IMG/VR virus record: IMGVR_UViG_3300025122_000007
Span: 1 to 37,619 of that record
From: a virus
Taxonomy: Duplodnaviria > Heunggongvirae > Uroviricota > Caudoviricetes
Length of the DNA: 37,619 nt
Reading direction: 5' to 3' (one strand)
The notes beneath the pieces were generated by a model. It was given only the letters and a program-made list of their open reading frames with translations. It did not search any database and was not told the DNA's origin. The translations under genes were made by a program, and so were the position numbers. Each line of letters begins with the position of its first letter. Within the stretch, counting starts at the first letter, position 1. Shown in pieces: positions 25,373 to 30,591 of this stretch.

Positions 25373-25778
25373 TGGTGGACGTGGGGAGAGTCGAACTCCC
25401 GTCCGCAAACACTCATGTGTTCATCGATACAATCATTCCTGTTAACAGGCATAGGGGCGTCGTTAGGACGCCTCCACCAGGGTAGATTTAAGGTCTCTCC
25501 AAGACAGGGGTGAGTAGTTTATATCCTCCGCTCTCAGAGGTGAATTTATCAAAGCGACTTTCTGTTCAGAGGCAGTCACCGCCCGTGGCTTTATGCGAGT
25601 GCGAGCTCGCCAGATCCGAAGATCATAGCGAAATCGGCCCTCAGGCCAGCGAACACAGTCTCGATTGACTCGATCATATCTGCATTTACTTTGTTTGGGT
25701 TTGTATTTAAGTGAGCCAACCCACTCACTGATTGCGATTCATACAGTCTTGTATCCACGTCGATACCTTTTCACGCCC
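25373..25778 (-). ncRNA. ssrA: tmRNA, 406 nt, one-piece
   Basis: Acceptor stem GGGCGUG/CACGUCC with G3:U70, discriminator A and encoded CCA. 5' GGUAUCGAC, T-arm GGGAG-UUCGACU-CUCCC, pk1 (GUGAGU/GCUCAC with GGGUU/AACCC), and an internal tag ORF. Confidence 0.96.
25591..25683 (-). other. tmRNA tag reading frame: (A)ADMIESIETVFAGLRADFAMIFGSGELALA*
   Basis: The resume codon GCA after GUAAAU is inferred. The frame is open for 30 codons and ends LALA-UAA. Confidence 0.8.
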
Positions 25779-25799: not shown

Positions 25800-25816
25800 A
25801 AGTAGCACTGCTACTT
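25800..25816. repeat. 7-bp hairpin AAGTAGC-ACT-GCTACTT upstream of the tmRNA
   Basis: Perfect inverted repeat. Confidence 0.6.
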
Positions 25817-25851
25817 ATGGTAGGGAACTTCCACCAAAAACCCTGGACTGT

Positions 25852-26220
25852 TTAGAACGGGATAGGAGCTGTTCCACCCGTCACTGCGCCAGTGGTCTCA
25901 GTCGTGGTAGCGACTGTGGTTCCACCGGTGGCCTCATTATAAGCTGCCTCAACCGCTTGCTGCAACTCGACACGTACTTCCTTGGAAGTAGGCCAGACCT
26001 CATCAAAGTAACGACGATTGGTATCACCTTCTGCCTGTGTGTCATCGAACTTACGGTTCTGAGACTGAGGTAGAGCGATAAAATAACCACTACCATCCTT
26101 CTTTCGAATCAACCGATACCTCACGGCGACAGCGTCAGCGATTGTAACAGATCCTCCTGCTACGACTGGTCCATCACCTTCGTTCGGCCAAATTCTAATT
26201 CCTGTAATGAATGTACTCAT
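25852..26220 (-). CDS. spoVG: SpoVG-family nucleic-acid-binding protein with an SSB-like C-terminal tail
   Basis: ITGIRIWP...AGGSVTIADAVAVR...FIALPQ...YFDEVWPTSKEVRVELQQAVEAAY, then a T/G/A-rich linker ending IPF. Confidence 0.8.
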   Translation of the reverse strand: MSTFITGIRIWPNEGDGPVVAGGSVTIADAVAVRYRLIRKKDGSGYFIALPQSQNRKFDDTQAEGDTNRRYFDEVWPTSKEVRVELQQAVEAAYNEATGGTTVATTTETTGAVTGGTAPIPF

Positions 26221-26408
26221 TAGTTCTCCTTAATGTCCATAAAGCCCATCCATTTCAGGGTCTTATCCAGGACTGCATTGATTTCTTTAGCTAATTCCAC
26301 GTCTTTGCATTGGATAGCTAAGGCATAGAGATCAGTTCCGCTCTTGTAAAATTCATAGGTTATCATCTGGTAATGCAGATTGTCCTTGAGTTCCTTCGTC
26401 GTACTCAC
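26220..26408 (-). CDS. Small hypothetical protein overlapping the RT 3' end
   Basis: 62-aa ORF whose stop abuts the spoVG start. Confidence 0.5.
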   Translation of the reverse strand: MSTTKELKDNLHYQMITYEFYKSGTDLYALAIQCKDVELAKEINAVLDKTLKWMGFMDIKEN

Positions 26409-27222
26409 CTCTATAACTCCTCATCAAGCTTTCATATTGAGAAGGCTTGACTCCTTTGATGAACTCCAGAATGCCAAGCATGCTTTCGTCCATCTCTTCT
26501 CCCTTCAGCCCCAAGAAATGGAGCTGTTGGCGCAACTGATTTCTTGTCTTCTTCGATACACCAAGTGTGTCGTTGTTGACTACGATTCCAGTTACAGACT
26601 GTCGTTGGAAGTAAGGCATCTTCTTGATCTTGCGATCATTGAGCTTAAAGCCAAATTCCTCAGCTACGGTACGTATCCTGTTTACAAACCAATCAGGTAT
26701 CTCATCTCCAGAAAAGGTAAGATCATCTGCATACCGTGTATAGGTAAGCTCCTGACTGTCCGCTACTCTTTTCAACTCAAAATCCATAGGCTTAAGTACT
26801 ATGTTTGAGATGACTGGACTGGTACATGCTCCCTGTGGAAGACATCCATTCAAGGTGCAGAGAGATGTTATCTTCTCTACATCCCATTCATCATTGACAT
26901 CAAGGTGCTCTTCCTCTCTTGTAAGAGCTTTGAAGATCATGAAGCTGGTAACAGAGGGAAAGAAGTCTTTGAGATCTATATTGATCACATACTTCTTTGC
27001 CTTATGAAGCTCAGCATTTGTAAGAATGCTTCTGTCTGCTCTGAAACCATGTGCAGCTGGATGCAAAGGAACCTTATCAAGTCGTTCTTTTGCCAGCTTG
27101 TGCCACTCGATGATGTCACCGATAGGTTCAGTGATCTGCCGAAACTTTCCACTCTTTTTCTTTACTGAATAGATTCGATAGTAACTATGTCTATTCGCTA
27201 AGATGTCACTGAGTCCAGACAT
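26353..27222 (-). CDS. Retron-type reverse transcriptase
   Basis: KKSGKFRQI, AHGF, NAELH (NAxxH), IDLKDFFPS, LPQGACTSP, catalytic YADD, and SVTGIVVN (VTG). Confidence 0.93.
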   Translation of the reverse strand: MSGLSDILANRHSYYRIYSVKKKSGKFRQITEPIGDIIEWHKLAKERLDKVPLHPAAHGFRADRSILTNAELHKAKKYVINIDLKDFFPSVTSFMIFKALTREEEHLDVNDEWDVEKITSLCTLNGCLPQGACTSPVISNIVLKPMDFELKRVADSQELTYTRYADDLTFSGDEIPDWFVNRIRTVAEEFGFKLNDRKIKKMPYFQRQSVTGIVVNNDTLGVSKKTRNQLRQQLHFLGLKGEEMDESMLGILEFIKGVKPSQYESLMRSYRGEYDEGTQGQSALPDDNL

Positions 27223-27845
27223 TCTTCTTCACCTGGTAGGAAGTTTCTCCATGAAGAATGAACCTTGCTGACTCCTGCTGTCATTGGTTTCCATTCTGGA
27301 ATGTAAGGCTTCGATAGAAGTTTCATTCCTGCTTCTTTTGGAGTTCTGTTCCCCTTCCTTTGATTGCACTTGATACATGCTGTCACACAATTATCAAAGT
27401 TGGTTCCAGGGAAACGCATGGTTGGATGGTTTCTTGGTATCACATGATCTATGTTGATACGCGGCCTGCCATTGCTATCTCTTCTGTTTCTCTTGAAATC
27501 ATTACCACAGTACTGGCATCTATAGTTGTCTCTTTCAAAGACACCACCTCTGCTGTATTTCAGTTCATGCCTAGGTAGTCTGTCGTACTTGGTAAGAATG
27601 ACCACTCTAGGAACTAGGATGGGTGTTCCTGGACCATGCCTAACAAAGTCCTCGAACAATTCCATCTGCTTTTCATTGACTGGCAGAGTTCTCCACGCAG
27701 AGAAATCATGAACCATTCCAGTTCTATGATCTAGAGCGTTTACCGTTCCAGAGCATAGTCTTGTGAATGCTCTTCCTACTTCAATGATATGAATAGGAAA
27801 CCATTGTTTGTTTAGTACTAAAGTATCACCACGGATGCCCATCAT
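27198..27845 (-). CDS. McrA-like HNH endonuclease
   Basis: RDNYRCQYCG, NIDHVIPR and VTACIKCNQRKGNRTP. Overlaps the RT start by 25 nt. Confidence 0.9.
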   Translation of the reverse strand: MMGIRGDTLVLNKQWFPIHIIEVGRAFTRLCSGTVNALDHRTGMVHDFSAWRTLPVNEKQMELFEDFVRHGPGTPILVPRVVILTKYDRLPRHELKYSRGGVFERDNYRCQYCGNDFKRNRRDSNGRPRINIDHVIPRNHPTMRFPGTNFDNCVTACIKCNQRKGNRTPKEAGMKLLSKPYIPEWKPMTAGVSKVHSSWRNFLPGEEECLDSVTS

Positions 27846-27862
27846 CCATCTCCTTTAGGTTG

Positions 27863-28087
27863 TGGTAGTTTCAGGAATCGAACCCAAATGCAGACAATCC
27901 CCTCTGTGTTAACAAAAGTGGAAAGGTGAATTGTGTGCTTACACCAGCTCTACCTTGAAATTCAATCCATAAGCTCCATGGCTTAGGTTCTCTTTGGCAA
28001 TGCCCTTACTTAGCCTCTAACCATCACTCGTTTAAGAGGCACCGTAGGAATCAGACCGTCGTCTGCTCTGCTTATGAATCAAACTAC
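27863..28087 (-). ncRNA. Candidate ~225-nt structured RNA with tRNA-like closure (candidate RT-associated ncRNA)
   Basis: Terminal stem GUAGUUU/AAACUAC, 8-bp GCAGACGA/UUGUCUGC, T-arm-like UUGGG-UUCGAUU-CCUGA, and several internal hairpins. Confidence 0.55.
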
Positions 28088-28118
28088 AAGCAAGGGGCCA
28101 GCTGTGCTGAGCCCCTTG
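28081..28118 (-). terminator. GC-rich hairpin, possible terminator or processing site after the ThiF gene
   Basis: CAAGGGGC(U)CAGC-ACA-GCUG-GCCCCUUG followed by CUUGUAGUUU (weak U-tract). Confidence 0.5.
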
Positions 28119-28193
28119 TATATGCTTACCGTTCCTTAGAGGTCCCTATTGGTTTGTCTCTGTCCCTCATATTGGGTAAGCAATGCAGTCTAA

Positions 28194-29264
28194 TCAGACT
28201 GCCAGTTCTACCTCGGCTACTTGATCCTCAGTCGTCTCTACCACTTCGATCGTAGGAGTCTCTTCGACGACTGTCGCCTTCTTCTTCTTACGCTTTCGTG
28301 GATATGCAACCTTATAAAGGTCTAGCTCCTTCAGGGTGGTATCAAAGTTTACGATCTTCTCATGAGCAGCTTGGATAGCTGTTCTGGTCAAACGAACAGG
28401 AGTTATCCTGTTGGTGTTAGCCTTGAAGTAGACCATATGATAACCCAACGGTTCATGTCTCAATATTACTTGCAGTGCATTGTATAATACTTGTGCTGCA
28501 GTCATATTGACCGAAATACTTTGGGGGTTGGCCAAAGCTCTCATTGCACAGTTCTCAGGGTTTTCTGCTTCGGTGGGCAACAAGCCCATCTCTCCGAAAG
28601 CACTTGGGAACTGTTCAAAGAAACAAGGGAGCCTGAATGCCTTTGGAATAGGCACTTCTTCAGAATCTAAGTCTGGGTCTTCCAAAGCAGAGATGGTGTC
28701 CCTGCTTTGTCCTTTATACGCGATGACCATTTGACCTGTGAACTGTTCGTTTCCTGAGTCCAACCAGAAAGTCTCTAGGTGCTCAGGTCTCTTCATGTAC
28801 CACTTGAAGAACAGTGCTCTTGTCTTGTTGTTGTCTACGCATGTAATCAAGATAGGACTTGCGTTGGTAGATTGGGTATAGATCAGAGCATTGATGTCTT
28901 CGTTGCTCTCTAGATAGCCATTGTAGTAGGCGATATCAATGCCAAAGGCATTTGAATATCTCTTTGCCATGACTTCAGCTTTGTACTTGTTGACATCAGC
29001 TCTTACAAACTGTTGTCTTACAAGATTCTTATCTTCTACCTTGTCACCATCAACCAAGACCAGCCTTAGGCTGTCAGGTTTCTTGTTGCCCATGCCACCA
29101 CGTCTCAACTTGTTGATGAGTGAGATGTATCGTGCCAGGTGTGGAATCAGATAGCCGCCAGTTCCTCCACATCCCACTACGATGACGACCTTGTCGATAG
29201 ATCTATCGGAAGGCCCCCGATTATAATAGCCGTGGAAGTTATGTACTGTATTAATTTCTCGCAT
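28194..29264 (-). CDS. ThiF/E1-like ubiquitin-activating enzyme (PRTRC-type; likely start MREINT)
   Basis: VVGCGGTGG, LVDGDKVEDKNLVRQQF, KAEVMA, TCVDNNKTR, WLDSGN, and a conserved-position Cys in ENCA. Confidence 0.9.
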   Translation of the reverse strand: MREINTVHNFHGYYNRGPSDRSIDKVVIVVGCGGTGGYLIPHLARYISLINKLRRGGMGNKKPDSLRLVLVDGDKVEDKNLVRQQFVRADVNKYKAEVMAKRYSNAFGIDIAYYNGYLESNEDINALIYTQSTNASPILITCVDNNKTRALFFKWYMKRPEHLETFWLDSGNEQFTGQMVIAYKGQSRDTISALEDPDLDSEEVPIPKAFRLPCFFEQFPSAFGEMGLLPTEAENPENCAMRALANPQSISVNMTAAQVLYNALQVILRHEPLGYHMVYFKANTNRITPVRLTRTAIQAAHEKIVNFDTTLKELDLYKVAYPRKRKKKKATVVEETPTIEVVETTEDQVAEVELAV

Positions 29265-29271
29265 TGTATCC

Positions 29272-30591
29272 TTACTCGCCAAACGTTTCGCTTGTCTCGT
29301 GAAAATCTCGAAGAGCCTCGTTGATAGTTTCATTGTGACCTATGGCCGCCAATCTACCTACGATATGATAGATGTCATCTTGATCAGCTATGTTACAGAT
29401 TGCATCGATGTAGTCGTAGATCGCTGCTTCGTCAGCAAGGAGCCAGCTGAACTCTTCGAATTGATCTGGAGGATCAATACCTACCAAGTATTCAGAGACC
29501 CAATCTGGATCTTCTCCGAAGGTATAAAGAAGCTCTCTATCATCCTTGCCAAGACCAAACTTCTCCCACCAGTCGACAGTCTGTTCACCAAAAGCATCTC
29601 TTATCTTCTGGATCCTGTCTTCTTCCTTCGGAAGGTAGTACGTCCTGCTCGGACCCCACTCCCCAAAGAGGCTCGGATCGAACGAGGACTTGGTCTTGAA
29701 TTCAACTGGAATTCCATTGACGATTGAGTCTGGTCTGCCTTGAAAGCGGCTCCTTGGCCTGACAACCTGCTTTCTTGCAGCTACGTGTGCAATATTCGCC
29801 CGCCATACAGCTTCGGGAATTTCTACCACAGGAATATTTTCCAATCCATCCACTGTGTCGGATTCGATATCAAAGATCTCGTCAAGACTAAGTGGAACCT
29901 CTTGACCTGTAACACAGGAGACTGCACGCAAAGCCCATTCAGGCAGAGCTTTCTGGATCTTGCCAACTACTCCATAAAGTCTGAAGGCTTTCTCGTCAGC
30001 AGTGTCGGTTCCTGAAAAGTAACCAGACATTGTGTTGTGAGAATGAATCTCCATAGCTGTGATGAGGTTCGGATCCGCTTCTTTGGTAAGATCACGCTCA
30101 TAACGGACTCCACCCTTGCTGACCACATGCTTGGGAACGTCAATGAAGTACTCCTGCTTCTCGATGTCAAAGTAGATGACTGCGTATGCCTCAGCCTCAT
30201 TCATCTCTTTACAAATTTTTCTGAAAAAGGTGACGATCTGAGCAAAGTGATTGATTGGGATACGTGGAAGAGTGAGCTCAAAATTAGGCTCGACGTCTTC
30301 AGGGTGTCCAGGAATCTTGAACTCAGCTTCTCTTGTTGTAATTGTTCCAATTGGATTGCTTTCAATTACATAGAGGCCATCACCACGGACAATCTTTGTT
30401 CGTGGCTTGTCATACGTACCACTCTCAGACACGTCGGTCACATAACCATAGTATCTATTTTGGAGCTGTTCTCTTACGGTGCTCTTGTTCTTTTGAGTTT
30501 CCATGACTGCCTCTTTCTTGGCAGCGGATTGCCTATCAATCATATTTTTTAGAGCAGCGATGCTGCCATTCGTACTAGTAAGTTTGTCCAC
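29272..30591 (-). CDS. Prokaryotic JAB/JAMM isopeptidase (PRTRC protein A-like) with N- and C-terminal extensions
   Basis: E...HSH-x7-S-x2-D (EIHSHNTMSGYFSGTD), and RLYGVVGKI. Confidence 0.88.
   Translation of the reverse strand: MDKLTSTNGSIAALKNMIDRQSAAKKEAVMETQKNKSTVREQLQNRYYGYVTDVSESGTYDKPRTKIVRGDGLYVIESNPIGTITTREAEFKIPGHPEDVEPNFELTLPRIPINHFAQIVTFFRKICKEMNEAEAYAVIYFDIEKQEYFIDVPKHVVSKGGVRYERDLTKEADPNLITAMEIHSHNTMSGYFSGTDTADEKAFRLYGVVGKIQKALPEWALRAVSCVTGQEVPLSLDEIFDIESDTVDGLENIPVVEIPEAVWRANIAHVAARKQVVRPRSRFQGRPDSIVNGIPVEFKTKSSFDPSLFGEWGPSRTYYLPKEEDRIQKIRDAFGEQTVDWWEKFGLGKDDRELLYTFGEDPDWVSEYLVGIDPPDQFEEFSWLLADEAAIYDYIDAICNIADQDDIYHIVGRLAAIGHNETINEALRDFHETSETFGE

What the first reader, a model, noticed from the sequence alone, without database searches (positions are those of the whole stretch)
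26220..28087. Phage-borne retron-type RT unit: structured RNA, HNH nuclease, RT, small ORF
Seen: an intact RT with the retron hallmarks NAxxH, YADD and VTG. It overlaps an upstream HNH gene by 25 nt and a downstream 62-aa ORF by 56 nt, and a structured non-coding segment precedes them. Established: retrons are ncRNA + RT + effector anti-phage systems, and HNH effectors normally come with a PtuA-like ATPase, which is absent here. Inference: a phage-encoded retron-like system with a lone HNH effector, perhaps for superinfection exclusion, inter-phage competition or interference with host retrons.
Basis: partly seen in the sequence, partly recalled or inferred. Interest (0 to 1): 0.85.

Follow-up and report, generated by a model that had tools for sequence, protein, structure and literature searches.

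The report
Phage reverse transcriptase with inserted nuclease
A family of large marine phages carries a retron-type reverse transcriptase as a conserved gene, and in this phage a tRNA-like RNA plus a small IscB-type HNH nuclease has been inserted just in front of it, so the RNA and nuclease are probably not the retron's own template and effector.

Summary
An intact 289-aa retron-type RT (NAxxH, YADD and VTG all present) overlaps an upstream 215-aa HNH gene by 25 nt and a downstream 62-aa ORF by 56 nt. A 348-nt structured intergenic region precedes them.

The interpretation, a retron made of ncRNA, a lone HNH effector and RT, is only partly supported.
- Related marine phages keep the order Ubl cassette, E1(ThiF), RT, small ORF, SpoVG-like gene. 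In most of them the E1 stop overlaps the RT start, with no HNH and no intergenic RNA.
- On an RT tree the five HNH-bearing lineages form one nested clade, which fits a single insertion.
- The HNH looks IshB-like: an IscB/Cas9-type HNH with an N-terminal domain resembling PLMP. It is not PtuB-like.
- Its homologues in unrelated large phages sit directly after true tRNA genes.
- The only conserved part of the RNA is a tRNA T-arm with an acceptor-like closing stem.
- No msr/msd was identified for the RT.

Best reading: a conserved phage retron-type RT with a small partner ORF, plus a later tRNA-like/HNH insertion.

The scan had already noted Ubl-cassette-plus-retron pairings on other (gut phage) DNA. 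I partly confirmed this on four other viral contigs.

The parts
28194..29333 (-). ThiF/E1-like gene, the last gene of a ubiquitin-like conjugation cassette and the conserved upstream neighbour of the RT
   Evidence: Pfam ThiF 7e-15. NCBIfam PRTRC_ThiF 7.8e-29, below cut-off. It directly abuts or overlaps the RT in HNH-less relatives L010-L015.
28091..28118 (-). G+C-rich hairpin just after the E1 stop codon
   Evidence: Visible in the sequence and the fold. The terminator scan did not call it, because no T-run follows.
27863..28087 (-). Structured tRNA-like RNA: a 7-bp closing stem (28081-28087 with 27865-27871), about 190 nt of internal hairpins, and a T-arm (27871-27887) with loop TTCGATT
   Evidence: Fold z = -3.5. 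T-stem 5/5 pairs and closing stem 7/7 pairs. ARAGORN and Rfam do not call it a tRNA. Its 3' trailer CCACAACC matches that of the phage's own tRNA-Phe.
27198..27845 (-). IshB-like HNH nuclease: an N-terminal PLMP-like domain (about residues 6-90) and an IscB/Cas9-type HNH domain (about 91-183)
   Evidence: Pfam HNH. Profile against PDB: TbaIscB 7.3e-13 and compact Cas9s about 1e-12. VIA-align: HNH Z 8.3 to compact Cas9; N-terminus Z 5.1-5.2 to the N-termini of IsrB and IscB; PtuB only Z 2.7-4.0. Catalytic D-H...N...N columns are invariant.
26353..27222 (-). Retron-type reverse transcriptase, 289 aa, with catalytic motifs intact
   Evidence: PADLOC RT_III-A 1.6e-70 and many other retron types within about 15% of that score. 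Profile against PDB: Ec86 RT 9e-51 over nearly the full length. The top 18 Foldseek hits are all retron RTs.
26220..26408 (-). Conserved small ORF (62 aa, helical, no known family) overlapping the RT 3' end
   Evidence: Homologues occupy the same position in L005, L007, L009 and L011 (18-35% identity). ORFs of similar size occupy it in L014 and L015. It is absent in L013 and L108.
25852..26220 (-). SpoVG-like protein with an SSB-style C-terminal tip, the conserved downstream neighbour (context only)
   Evidence: Pfam SpoVG 2.4e-09. Orthologues in L005, L007, L013 and L108 end in PPF, IPF or PSPF.

Best explanation
The locus is a composite of two units of different age.

(1) The older unit is a retron-clade RT followed by a roughly 60-aa ORF. 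It is inherited vertically in a family of large marine phages, always directly after the E1 (ThiF) gene of a ubiquitin-like conjugation cassette and before a SpoVG-like gene.

(2) In one sub-clade, which includes this phage, a module of a tRNA-like RNA plus a small PLMP-HNH (IshB-like) nuclease was inserted once into the E1|RT junction. Since then it has been inherited with the RT and is translationally coupled to it.

Shown: the gene order, the nested phylogeny, the fold and sequence affinities of both proteins, and the recurrent tRNA-then-HNH arrangement in unrelated phages.

Inferred:
- The HNH is a free-standing, homing-type or otherwise selfish nuclease of the kind that lives in phage tRNA clusters.
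- The tRNA-like element is a tRNA-derived processing or stability element (a substrate for RNase P or the CCA-adding enzyme) that defines the 5' end of the HNH-RT message. It is not a retron msr/msd.
- The RT is an active enzyme that copies an RNA not yet identified, possibly together with the small ORF, into single-stranded DNA for a phage-beneficial purpose.
For: Gene order in relatives:
- Four further lineages have E1, then a gap, then HNH, then RT (the gap is 237-326 nt where it was recovered): L005, L007, L009 and L108.
- L010-L012, L013, L014, L015/L016 and L112 have the E1 stop overlapping or abutting the RT start, with no HNH.

RT tree:
- The HNH-bearing rows form one clade (support 97).
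- That clade is sister to the HNH-less L010 lineage (99).
- Both sit inside a 20-row marine-phage clade (98).

HNH affinities:
- The closest non-clade homologues (35-41% identity, full length) have no RT nearby.
- A tRNA gene ends no more than 40 nt upstream on the same strand in L018, L021, Myxococcus phage Mx1, Arthrobacter phage Atuin and virus Rctr197k. In Synechococcus phage S-CBWM1 a tRNA cluster lies near a degraded copy.
- The HNH is IscB/Cas9-type with a PLMP-like N-terminus.

Intergenic RNA:
- The intergenic regions share only the T-arm. T-stem and closing-stem sequences differ between lineages but still pair.
- The phage encodes 30 tRNAs and a CCA-adding enzyme.

RT: the catalytic motifs are invariant across the family.
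Against: - HNH and RT overlap in all five lineages (25, 25, 1, 4 and 0-1 nt). They have diverged to similar extents (HNH 48-64% identity, RT 56-63%). The pair has therefore been kept together for a long time, which a purely selfish nuclease need not be.
- In this window the closing stem is followed by a G, as in retron a1/a2 stems. The order RNA, then nuclease, then RT resembles type I-A retrons.
- No alternative template RNA for the RT was found, so the RT's function remains inferred.
- The homing activity of the HNH is not shown.
- The PLMP match is of middling strength (Z about 5).
Confidence: 0.62

Rival explanations
1. The structured RNA is the retron msr/msd, the HNH is a lone effector (type I-A-like without PtuA), and RT plus the small ORF complete a phage-borne retron. 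It would be used for superinfection exclusion or inter-phage conflict.
For: - The RT is a full-length retron-type enzyme.
- The order RNA, HNH, RT is kept in five lineages with overlapping reading frames.
- In this window a 7-bp terminal stem is followed by G.
- The RNA is significantly structured.
Against: - Sister lineages keep the RT without the RNA or the HNH.
- The RNAs share only a tRNA T-arm. In L005 and L007 the closing stem encloses only about 45-50 nt, too little for an msr plus an msd.
- The HNH is far closer to IscB/Cas9 HNH than to PtuB.
- HNH homologues follow ordinary tRNA genes with no RT nearby.
- The best PADLOC RT models are types III-A, XIII and II-A. No type I-A model is in the top 25.
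Confidence: 0.15
2. The RNA, the HNH nickase and the RT act as one machine. The IshB-like HNH, positioned by the tRNA-like RNA, nicks a DNA target, and the RT extends from the nick or from the RNA (target-primed or tRNA-like-primed reverse transcription).
For: - PLMP-HNH architecture, as in the IscB family whose RNAs lie directly upstream of the gene (PMC10734217).
- HNH and RT have been translationally coupled and co-inherited since the insertion.
- A tRNA or tRNA-like RNA sits directly upstream of this HNH family in many phages.
Against: - Outside this sub-clade the HNH family has no RT partner and the RT has no HNH partner.
- No guide-like or scaffold conservation exists in the RNA.
- No RuvC or target-recognition domain is present.
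Confidence: 0.06
3. The RT works with the ubiquitin-like cassette upstream (Ubl, E2, JAB, E1) as a single phage system. The HNH and the RNA are bystanders.
For: - E1 and RT abut or overlap across the whole marine family.
- E1, JAB or E2 homologues lie within 4 kb of the RT on four other IMG/VR contigs with RTs only 29-35% identical: L130, L160, L164 and L129.
- By contrast, only 11 of 50,697 phage records hit this E1 at all.
- Earlier scan notes report the same pairing in gut phages.
Against: - Other phages with a related E1 cassette have no RT next to it: Bacillus phage WH1, Vibrio phage D69 and L110.
- None of 79 metagenomic retron-RT loci had E1 or JAB nearby.
- Adjacency in a syntenic phage genome is weak evidence of function.
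- No paper describing such a system was found.
Confidence: 0.25

Closest known systems
Retron reverse transcriptases (Ec86/Eco1, Ec78/Eco7, Ec83, Ec67/Eco2)
   Same: Nearly full-length profile match to solved retron RTs (Ec86 9e-51, the others 1e-40 to 1e-44). The top 18 Foldseek hits are retron RTs. NAxxH, YADD and VTG are present.
   Different: - It belongs to no single retron type: the PADLOC type models all score within about 15% of each other, and the NCBIfam St85 model scores below its cut-off.
- At 289 aa it is short, and relatives are only about 255 aa.
- No adjacent msr/msd is recognisable.
- It is a conserved gene of a large-phage family rather than part of a bacterial or prophage defence island.
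Type I-A retrons (ncRNA, PtuA ATPase, PtuB HNH, RT)
   Same: The order is RNA, then HNH, then RT, and an HNH nuclease is encoded upstream of the RT.
   Different: - There is no PtuA ATPase.
- The HNH is not PtuB-like: Z 2.7-4.0 to PtuB against 8.3 to Cas9/IscB HNH.
- The RT is not closest to type I-A models.
- The HNH and the RNA are absent from sister lineages.
IshB (PLMP + HNH proteins of the IscB/IsrB/OMEGA family; PMC10734217, PMC11610941)
   Same: - About 200 aa.
- The N-terminal domain superposes on the N-termini of IsrB and IscB (Z 5.1-5.2, rmsd 1.7-2.8 over 46-50 residues).
- The HNH domain is closest to IscB and compact Cas9.
- There is no RuvC domain.
- A structured RNA lies directly upstream of the gene.
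   Different: - No IS200/IS605 context was seen.
- The upstream RNA is tRNA-like, or in relatives a genuine tRNA, rather than an omega-RNA.
- Membership rests on a middling structural score and was not tested against IshB sequences.
Free-standing homing endonuclease genes in phage tRNA clusters (for example T4 SegB, PMC2330249)
   Same: A small nuclease gene sits immediately beside tRNA genes in large phages, and its presence varies at a fixed site among related genomes.
   Different: - SegB is a GIY-YIG enzyme, not an HNH.
- Cleavage of the empty site was not tested here.
- The insertion is old and stable: five lineages whose HNH proteins are 48-64% identical.

Membership tests
Retron | Reverse transcriptase of the retron clade with NAxxH, YADD and VTG | tested here: met
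Retron | Adjacent msr-msd ncRNA with a1/a2 terminal repeats and a branching G, co-evolving with the RT | tested here: inconclusive
   - This window has a 7-bp terminal stem followed by G.
- The RNAs of the five lineages share only a tRNA T-arm.
- In L005 and L007 the stem encloses about 45-50 nt.
- HNH-less relatives have no RNA gap next to the RT.
- Rfam gives no hit.
Retron | Production of msDNA | not testable with these tools
   Only assembled contigs of DNA runs were available; no listed run is on record as RNA and none is kept as raw reads.
Retron type I-A (Septu-like) | PtuA ABC/SMC-type ATPase encoded with the HNH | tested here: not met
   No ATPase lies in the operon. The neighbours are E1, the small ORF and the SpoVG-like gene.
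Retron type I-A (Septu-like) | HNH of the PtuB family | tested here: not met
   PADLOC PtuB hits reach only 2.5e-06, over the HNH core. Structural Z to PtuB chains is 2.7-4.0, against 8.3 to compact Cas9. The profile gives 7e-13 to IscB.
IshB (OMEGA family) | N-terminal PLMP domain | tested here: inconclusive
   Model residues 6-90 align to the N-termini of IsrB (8dmb_P), HfmIscB and TbaIscB at Z 5.1-5.2. The sequence profile did not detect the domain.
IshB (OMEGA family) | IscB/Cas9-type HNH domain without RuvC | tested here: met
   The protein is 215 aa with no further domain.
IshB (OMEGA family) | Cognate omega-RNA or IS200/IS605 context | not tested
   The upstream RNA is tRNA-like. No transposase search was made.
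Free-standing homing endonuclease | Presence/absence polymorphism at a fixed site among related genomes | tested here: met
   The E1|RT junction is occupied in five lineages and empty in at least five.
Free-standing homing endonuclease | Cleaves the empty allele | not testable with these tools
   This needs an enzyme assay.
tRNA | Cloverleaf recognised by ARAGORN or the Rfam tRNA model | tested here: not met
   Not called in this window. Only the T-arm, an acceptor-like stem and a tRNA-like trailer are present. ARAGORN weakly calls the L005 counterpart tRNA-Ile, but Rfam does not.
Group II intron / DGR | Intron RNA domains, or template/variable repeat pair | tested here: not met
   No Rfam intron hit. 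The group II RT model scores only 5e-16, against 1e-61 or better for retron models. No long near-identical repeats occur within 7 kb.

The most novel reading that the evidence does not exclude
The tRNA-like RNA, the IshB-like HNH nickase and the retron-type RT, translationally coupled for a long evolutionary time in this sub-clade, form a natural RNA-nickase-RT machine. It would perform target-primed or tRNA-like-primed reverse transcription, a natural analogue of prime editing. A less radical alternative, with odds of about 0.25, is that the retron-type RT is a working part of the phage's ubiquitin-like conjugation system.
Probability: 0.06. Interest if true: 0.9.

Novelty: new variant of a known kind. 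Interest (0 to 1): 0.55.

Why it matters
Retron RTs are known as bacterial and prophage defence genes that carry an adjacent template RNA and an effector. Here a retron-type RT is a conserved, vertically inherited gene of a family of large marine phages. Most members have no recognisable template RNA next to it, and it always follows a ubiquitin-like conjugation cassette. That raises the question of what a phage uses such an enzyme for.

Separately, the recurrent pairing of a tRNA (or tRNA-like RNA) with a PLMP-HNH, IshB-like nuclease in large phages is a pattern I did not find described. It bears on the biology of the smallest relatives of IscB and Cas9.

The case also shows that 'RNA + nuclease + RT' in a row need not be a single system.

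Tried and rejected
- Rfam at gathering and at E<=10 gave nothing in 25800-28400 apart from a chance snoRNA-level hit.
- Complex prediction for the RT with the 62-aa ORF gave 'no answer', so nothing can be said about binding.
- The look-up of sequencing runs listed no RNA holder. The listed holders are assembled contigs of marine and vent DNA metagenomes, so neither transcript ends nor cDNA peaks could be examined, and read laying was not used.
- Two gut 'Bacteriophage sp.' records hit by the RT or by the E1 (L109, L110) did not show E1-RT adjacency.
- The leader RNA of the gut-type locus L160 has no tRNA-like element and is not significantly structured (z = -1.2). No homology to this window's RNA could be shown.
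- nhmmer found no copy of any of the four intergenic RNAs in HNH-less relatives or elsewhere in this phage genome.
- A DGR reading was rejected because there are no template/variable repeats.
- A group II intron reading was rejected.
- The metagenome scan added no new HNH-RT lineage: L028 is identical to L007.
- Literature searches for retron or RT together with ThiF, JAB, PRTRC or ubiquitin-like terms found no description of the pairing.
Full report
**What is at the coordinates.** All genes in the window run on the minus strand. Reading in the direction of transcription, the locus holds:
- a ThiF/E1-like gene at 28194-29333 (Pfam ThiF 7e-15; NCBIfam PRTRC_ThiF 7.8e-29);
- a 348-nt gap at 27846-28193;
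- a 215-aa HNH protein at 27198-27845;
- a 289-aa reverse transcriptase at 26353-27222;
- a 62-aa ORF at 26220-26408;
- a SpoVG-like gene at 25852-26220;
- a tmRNA at 25373-25778.

The gap folds more stably than all 100 shuffles (z = -3.5). The record is a 120-kb IMG/VR virus contig, estimated 56% complete. It encodes a DnaE-type polymerase, a primase-helicase, a class II RNR, a CCA-adding enzyme, ClpP and Ro60. Further along the genome there are 30 tRNA genes.

**The RT.** It is retron-type by every test.
- PADLOC retron RT models score up to 1.6e-70.
- NCBIfam retron_St85 scores 1.7e-61, against 5e-16 for the group II model.
- A family profile matches solved retron RTs over nearly their full length: Ec86 at 9e-51, and Kva2, Ec83, Ec78 and Ec67 at 1e-40 to 1e-44. 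Group II intron RTs score about 1e-19.
- The top 18 Foldseek hits of the model (pLDDT 82) are all retron RTs.
- NAxxH, YADD and VTG are invariant in the family alignment.

The RT fits no single retron type. Types III-A, XIII, II-A, X, XI and XII score within about 15% of each other, and the St85 score is below NCBI's cut-off.

**Relatives decide the anatomy.** Exact-protein look-ups recovered the neighbourhoods of the closest RTs.
- Four further lineages (L005, L007, L009, L108; RT 56-63% identical) have E1, an intergenic region (237-326 nt where it was recovered), HNH, RT and a SpoVG-like gene.
- The next lineage out (L010-L012, 45% identical) has the E1 stop codon overlapping or abutting the RT start. 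It has no HNH and no intergenic region.
- The same is true of a broad group of roughly 255-aa RTs on 44-204-kb marine contigs (L013-L016, L112; 41-45% identical).
- On a 188-row RT tree the five HNH-bearing lineages form one clade (support 97). That clade is sister to L010 (99). Both lie inside a 20-row marine-phage clade (98).

The simplest history is a single insertion of RNA plus HNH into an older E1|RT junction. Within the sub-clade HNH and RT have diverged to similar extents (HNH 48-64% identical), so they have been inherited together since.

**The small ORF.** It belongs to the older unit. Homologues or ORFs of similar size sit at the RT's 3' end in L005, L007, L009, L011, L014 and L015. 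L013 and L108 lack it.

**The HNH.**
- Its profile is closest to IscB and compact Cas9 HNH domains (7e-13 to 5e-12).
- In the structure model (pLDDT 78), residues 91-183 match compact Cas9 HNH at Z 8.3.
- The PtuB chains of solved type I-A retrons and Septu reach only Z 2.7-4.0.
- Residues 6-90 align to the extreme N-termini of IsrB, HfmIscB and TbaIscB (Z 5.1-5.2, rmsd 1.7-2.8). That is where the PLMP domain of this family lies.

A protein of about 200 aa with PLMP plus HNH and no RuvC is what has been named IshB (PMC10734217, PMC11610941). I call it IshB-like. The PLMP score is only middling.

**Where this HNH family lives.**
- The nearest full-length homologues outside the clade (35-41% identical) have no RT nearby.
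- In five of eleven sampled contexts a genuine tRNA gene ends 13-38 nt upstream on the same strand. These are two families of very large phage contigs (tRNA-Arg), Myxococcus phage Mx1 (tRNA-Leu), Arthrobacter phage Atuin (tRNA-Thr and tRNA-Cys) and virus Rctr197k (three tRNA-Leu).
- In Synechococcus phage S-CBWM1 a degraded copy lies beside a tRNA cluster.
- Nuclease genes embedded in phage tRNA clusters have precedent, for example T4 SegB (PMC2330249).

**The RNA.**
- The only part shared between lineages is a tRNA-type T-arm with loop TTCGA(T/C)T.
- Its 5-bp stem has a different sequence in each lineage and still pairs: 5/5 in the window, 5/5 in L005 and 4/5 in L007.
- A 3' strand follows that pairs with an upstream 6-7-mer, which also differs in each lineage.
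- In this window the closing stem spans about 225 nt. In L005 and L007 it spans about 60 nt. In L009 and L108 the T-loop is degenerate.
- The rest of the intergenic regions shows no detectable similarity. Nothing like them occurs in HNH-less relatives or elsewhere in this genome.
- The 3' trailer, CCACAACC, is the same as that of the phage's own tRNA-Phe.
- ARAGORN and Rfam do not call a tRNA in the window.

I read this as a tRNA-derived element that came in with the HNH, most likely as a processing or stability signal. I do not read it as an msr/msd. The compensatory changes argue that it is functional and not merely decaying.

**What remains open.**
- No template RNA for the RT was found in any family member. 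The genes around the RT are tightly packed in the HNH-less phages.
- The RT's conserved company is the E1 cassette upstream and the small ORF and SpoVG-like protein downstream.
- E1, JAB or E2 homologues also lie within 4 kb of more distant viral retron-type RTs: L130, L160, L164 and L129, which are 29-35% identical. By contrast only 11 of 50,697 phage records hit this E1 at all.
- Earlier notes of this scan describe the same pairing in gut phages. L160 matches one of those descriptions.
- Other phages with related E1 cassettes lack an RT, and 79 metagenomic retron loci lack E1. A functional link is therefore possible but not shown.
- I found no paper on it.

**Verdict.** Comparative evidence does not support a single RNA-HNH-RT retron with a lone HNH effector. 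The better-supported reading is a conserved phage retron-type RT with a small partner ORF, plus a later tRNA-like/IshB-like HNH insertion. A separate, non-exclusive question is whether the RT works with the Ubl cassette, which I put at about 0.25.

Noticed in passing
own genome beyond the window, G000:C1:38846-64723 (minus strand): There are 30 tRNA genes, including one with anticodon CTA that ARAGORN labels tRNA-Pyl, a possible amber suppressor. At least seven further T-loop-bearing elements are not called as tRNAs, for example near 40808, 46634, 54666, 55248, 55506, 63780 and 71816.
   Followed up: no
L130, L160, L164, L129 (IMG/VR contigs): Distant viral retron-type RTs (29-35% identical) have E1, JAB or E2 homologues within 4 kb. 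L160 has the order small ORF, 473 aa, 272 aa, 222-aa E1, a 397-nt gap, then RT. This matches earlier scan notes on gut phages.
   Followed up: partly
window 25852-26220 and orthologues in L007, L013, L108: The SpoVG-like protein ends in a Gly/Thr-rich linker and an IPF, PPF or PSPF tip in every lineage, like the C-terminal tip of SSB.
   Followed up: no
window 25373-25778; L005 6932-7303; L007 6555-7008: A phage tmRNA with an unusually long tag (26-30 residues) is conserved downstream of the RT block in the long-RT lineages. It was not detected in the short-RT family.
   Followed up: partly
L194 (Synechococcus phage S-CBWM1, 18499-18789 of the record): The HNH-like sequence here is the only nucleotide-level match of the window region to a cultured phage. 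It is split over small annotated ORFs next to two pseudo-tRNAs and a tRNA-Met, and looks like a degraded copy of the tRNA-plus-HNH module.
   Followed up: partly
L164 8550-8747: A partial group I intron hit (E 8.7e-04, cut off by the locus end) follows the JAB-like gene.
   Followed up: no
L130 7542-7617: A second phage contig with an RT near an E1-like gene also carries a tRNA with anticodon CTA.
   Followed up: no
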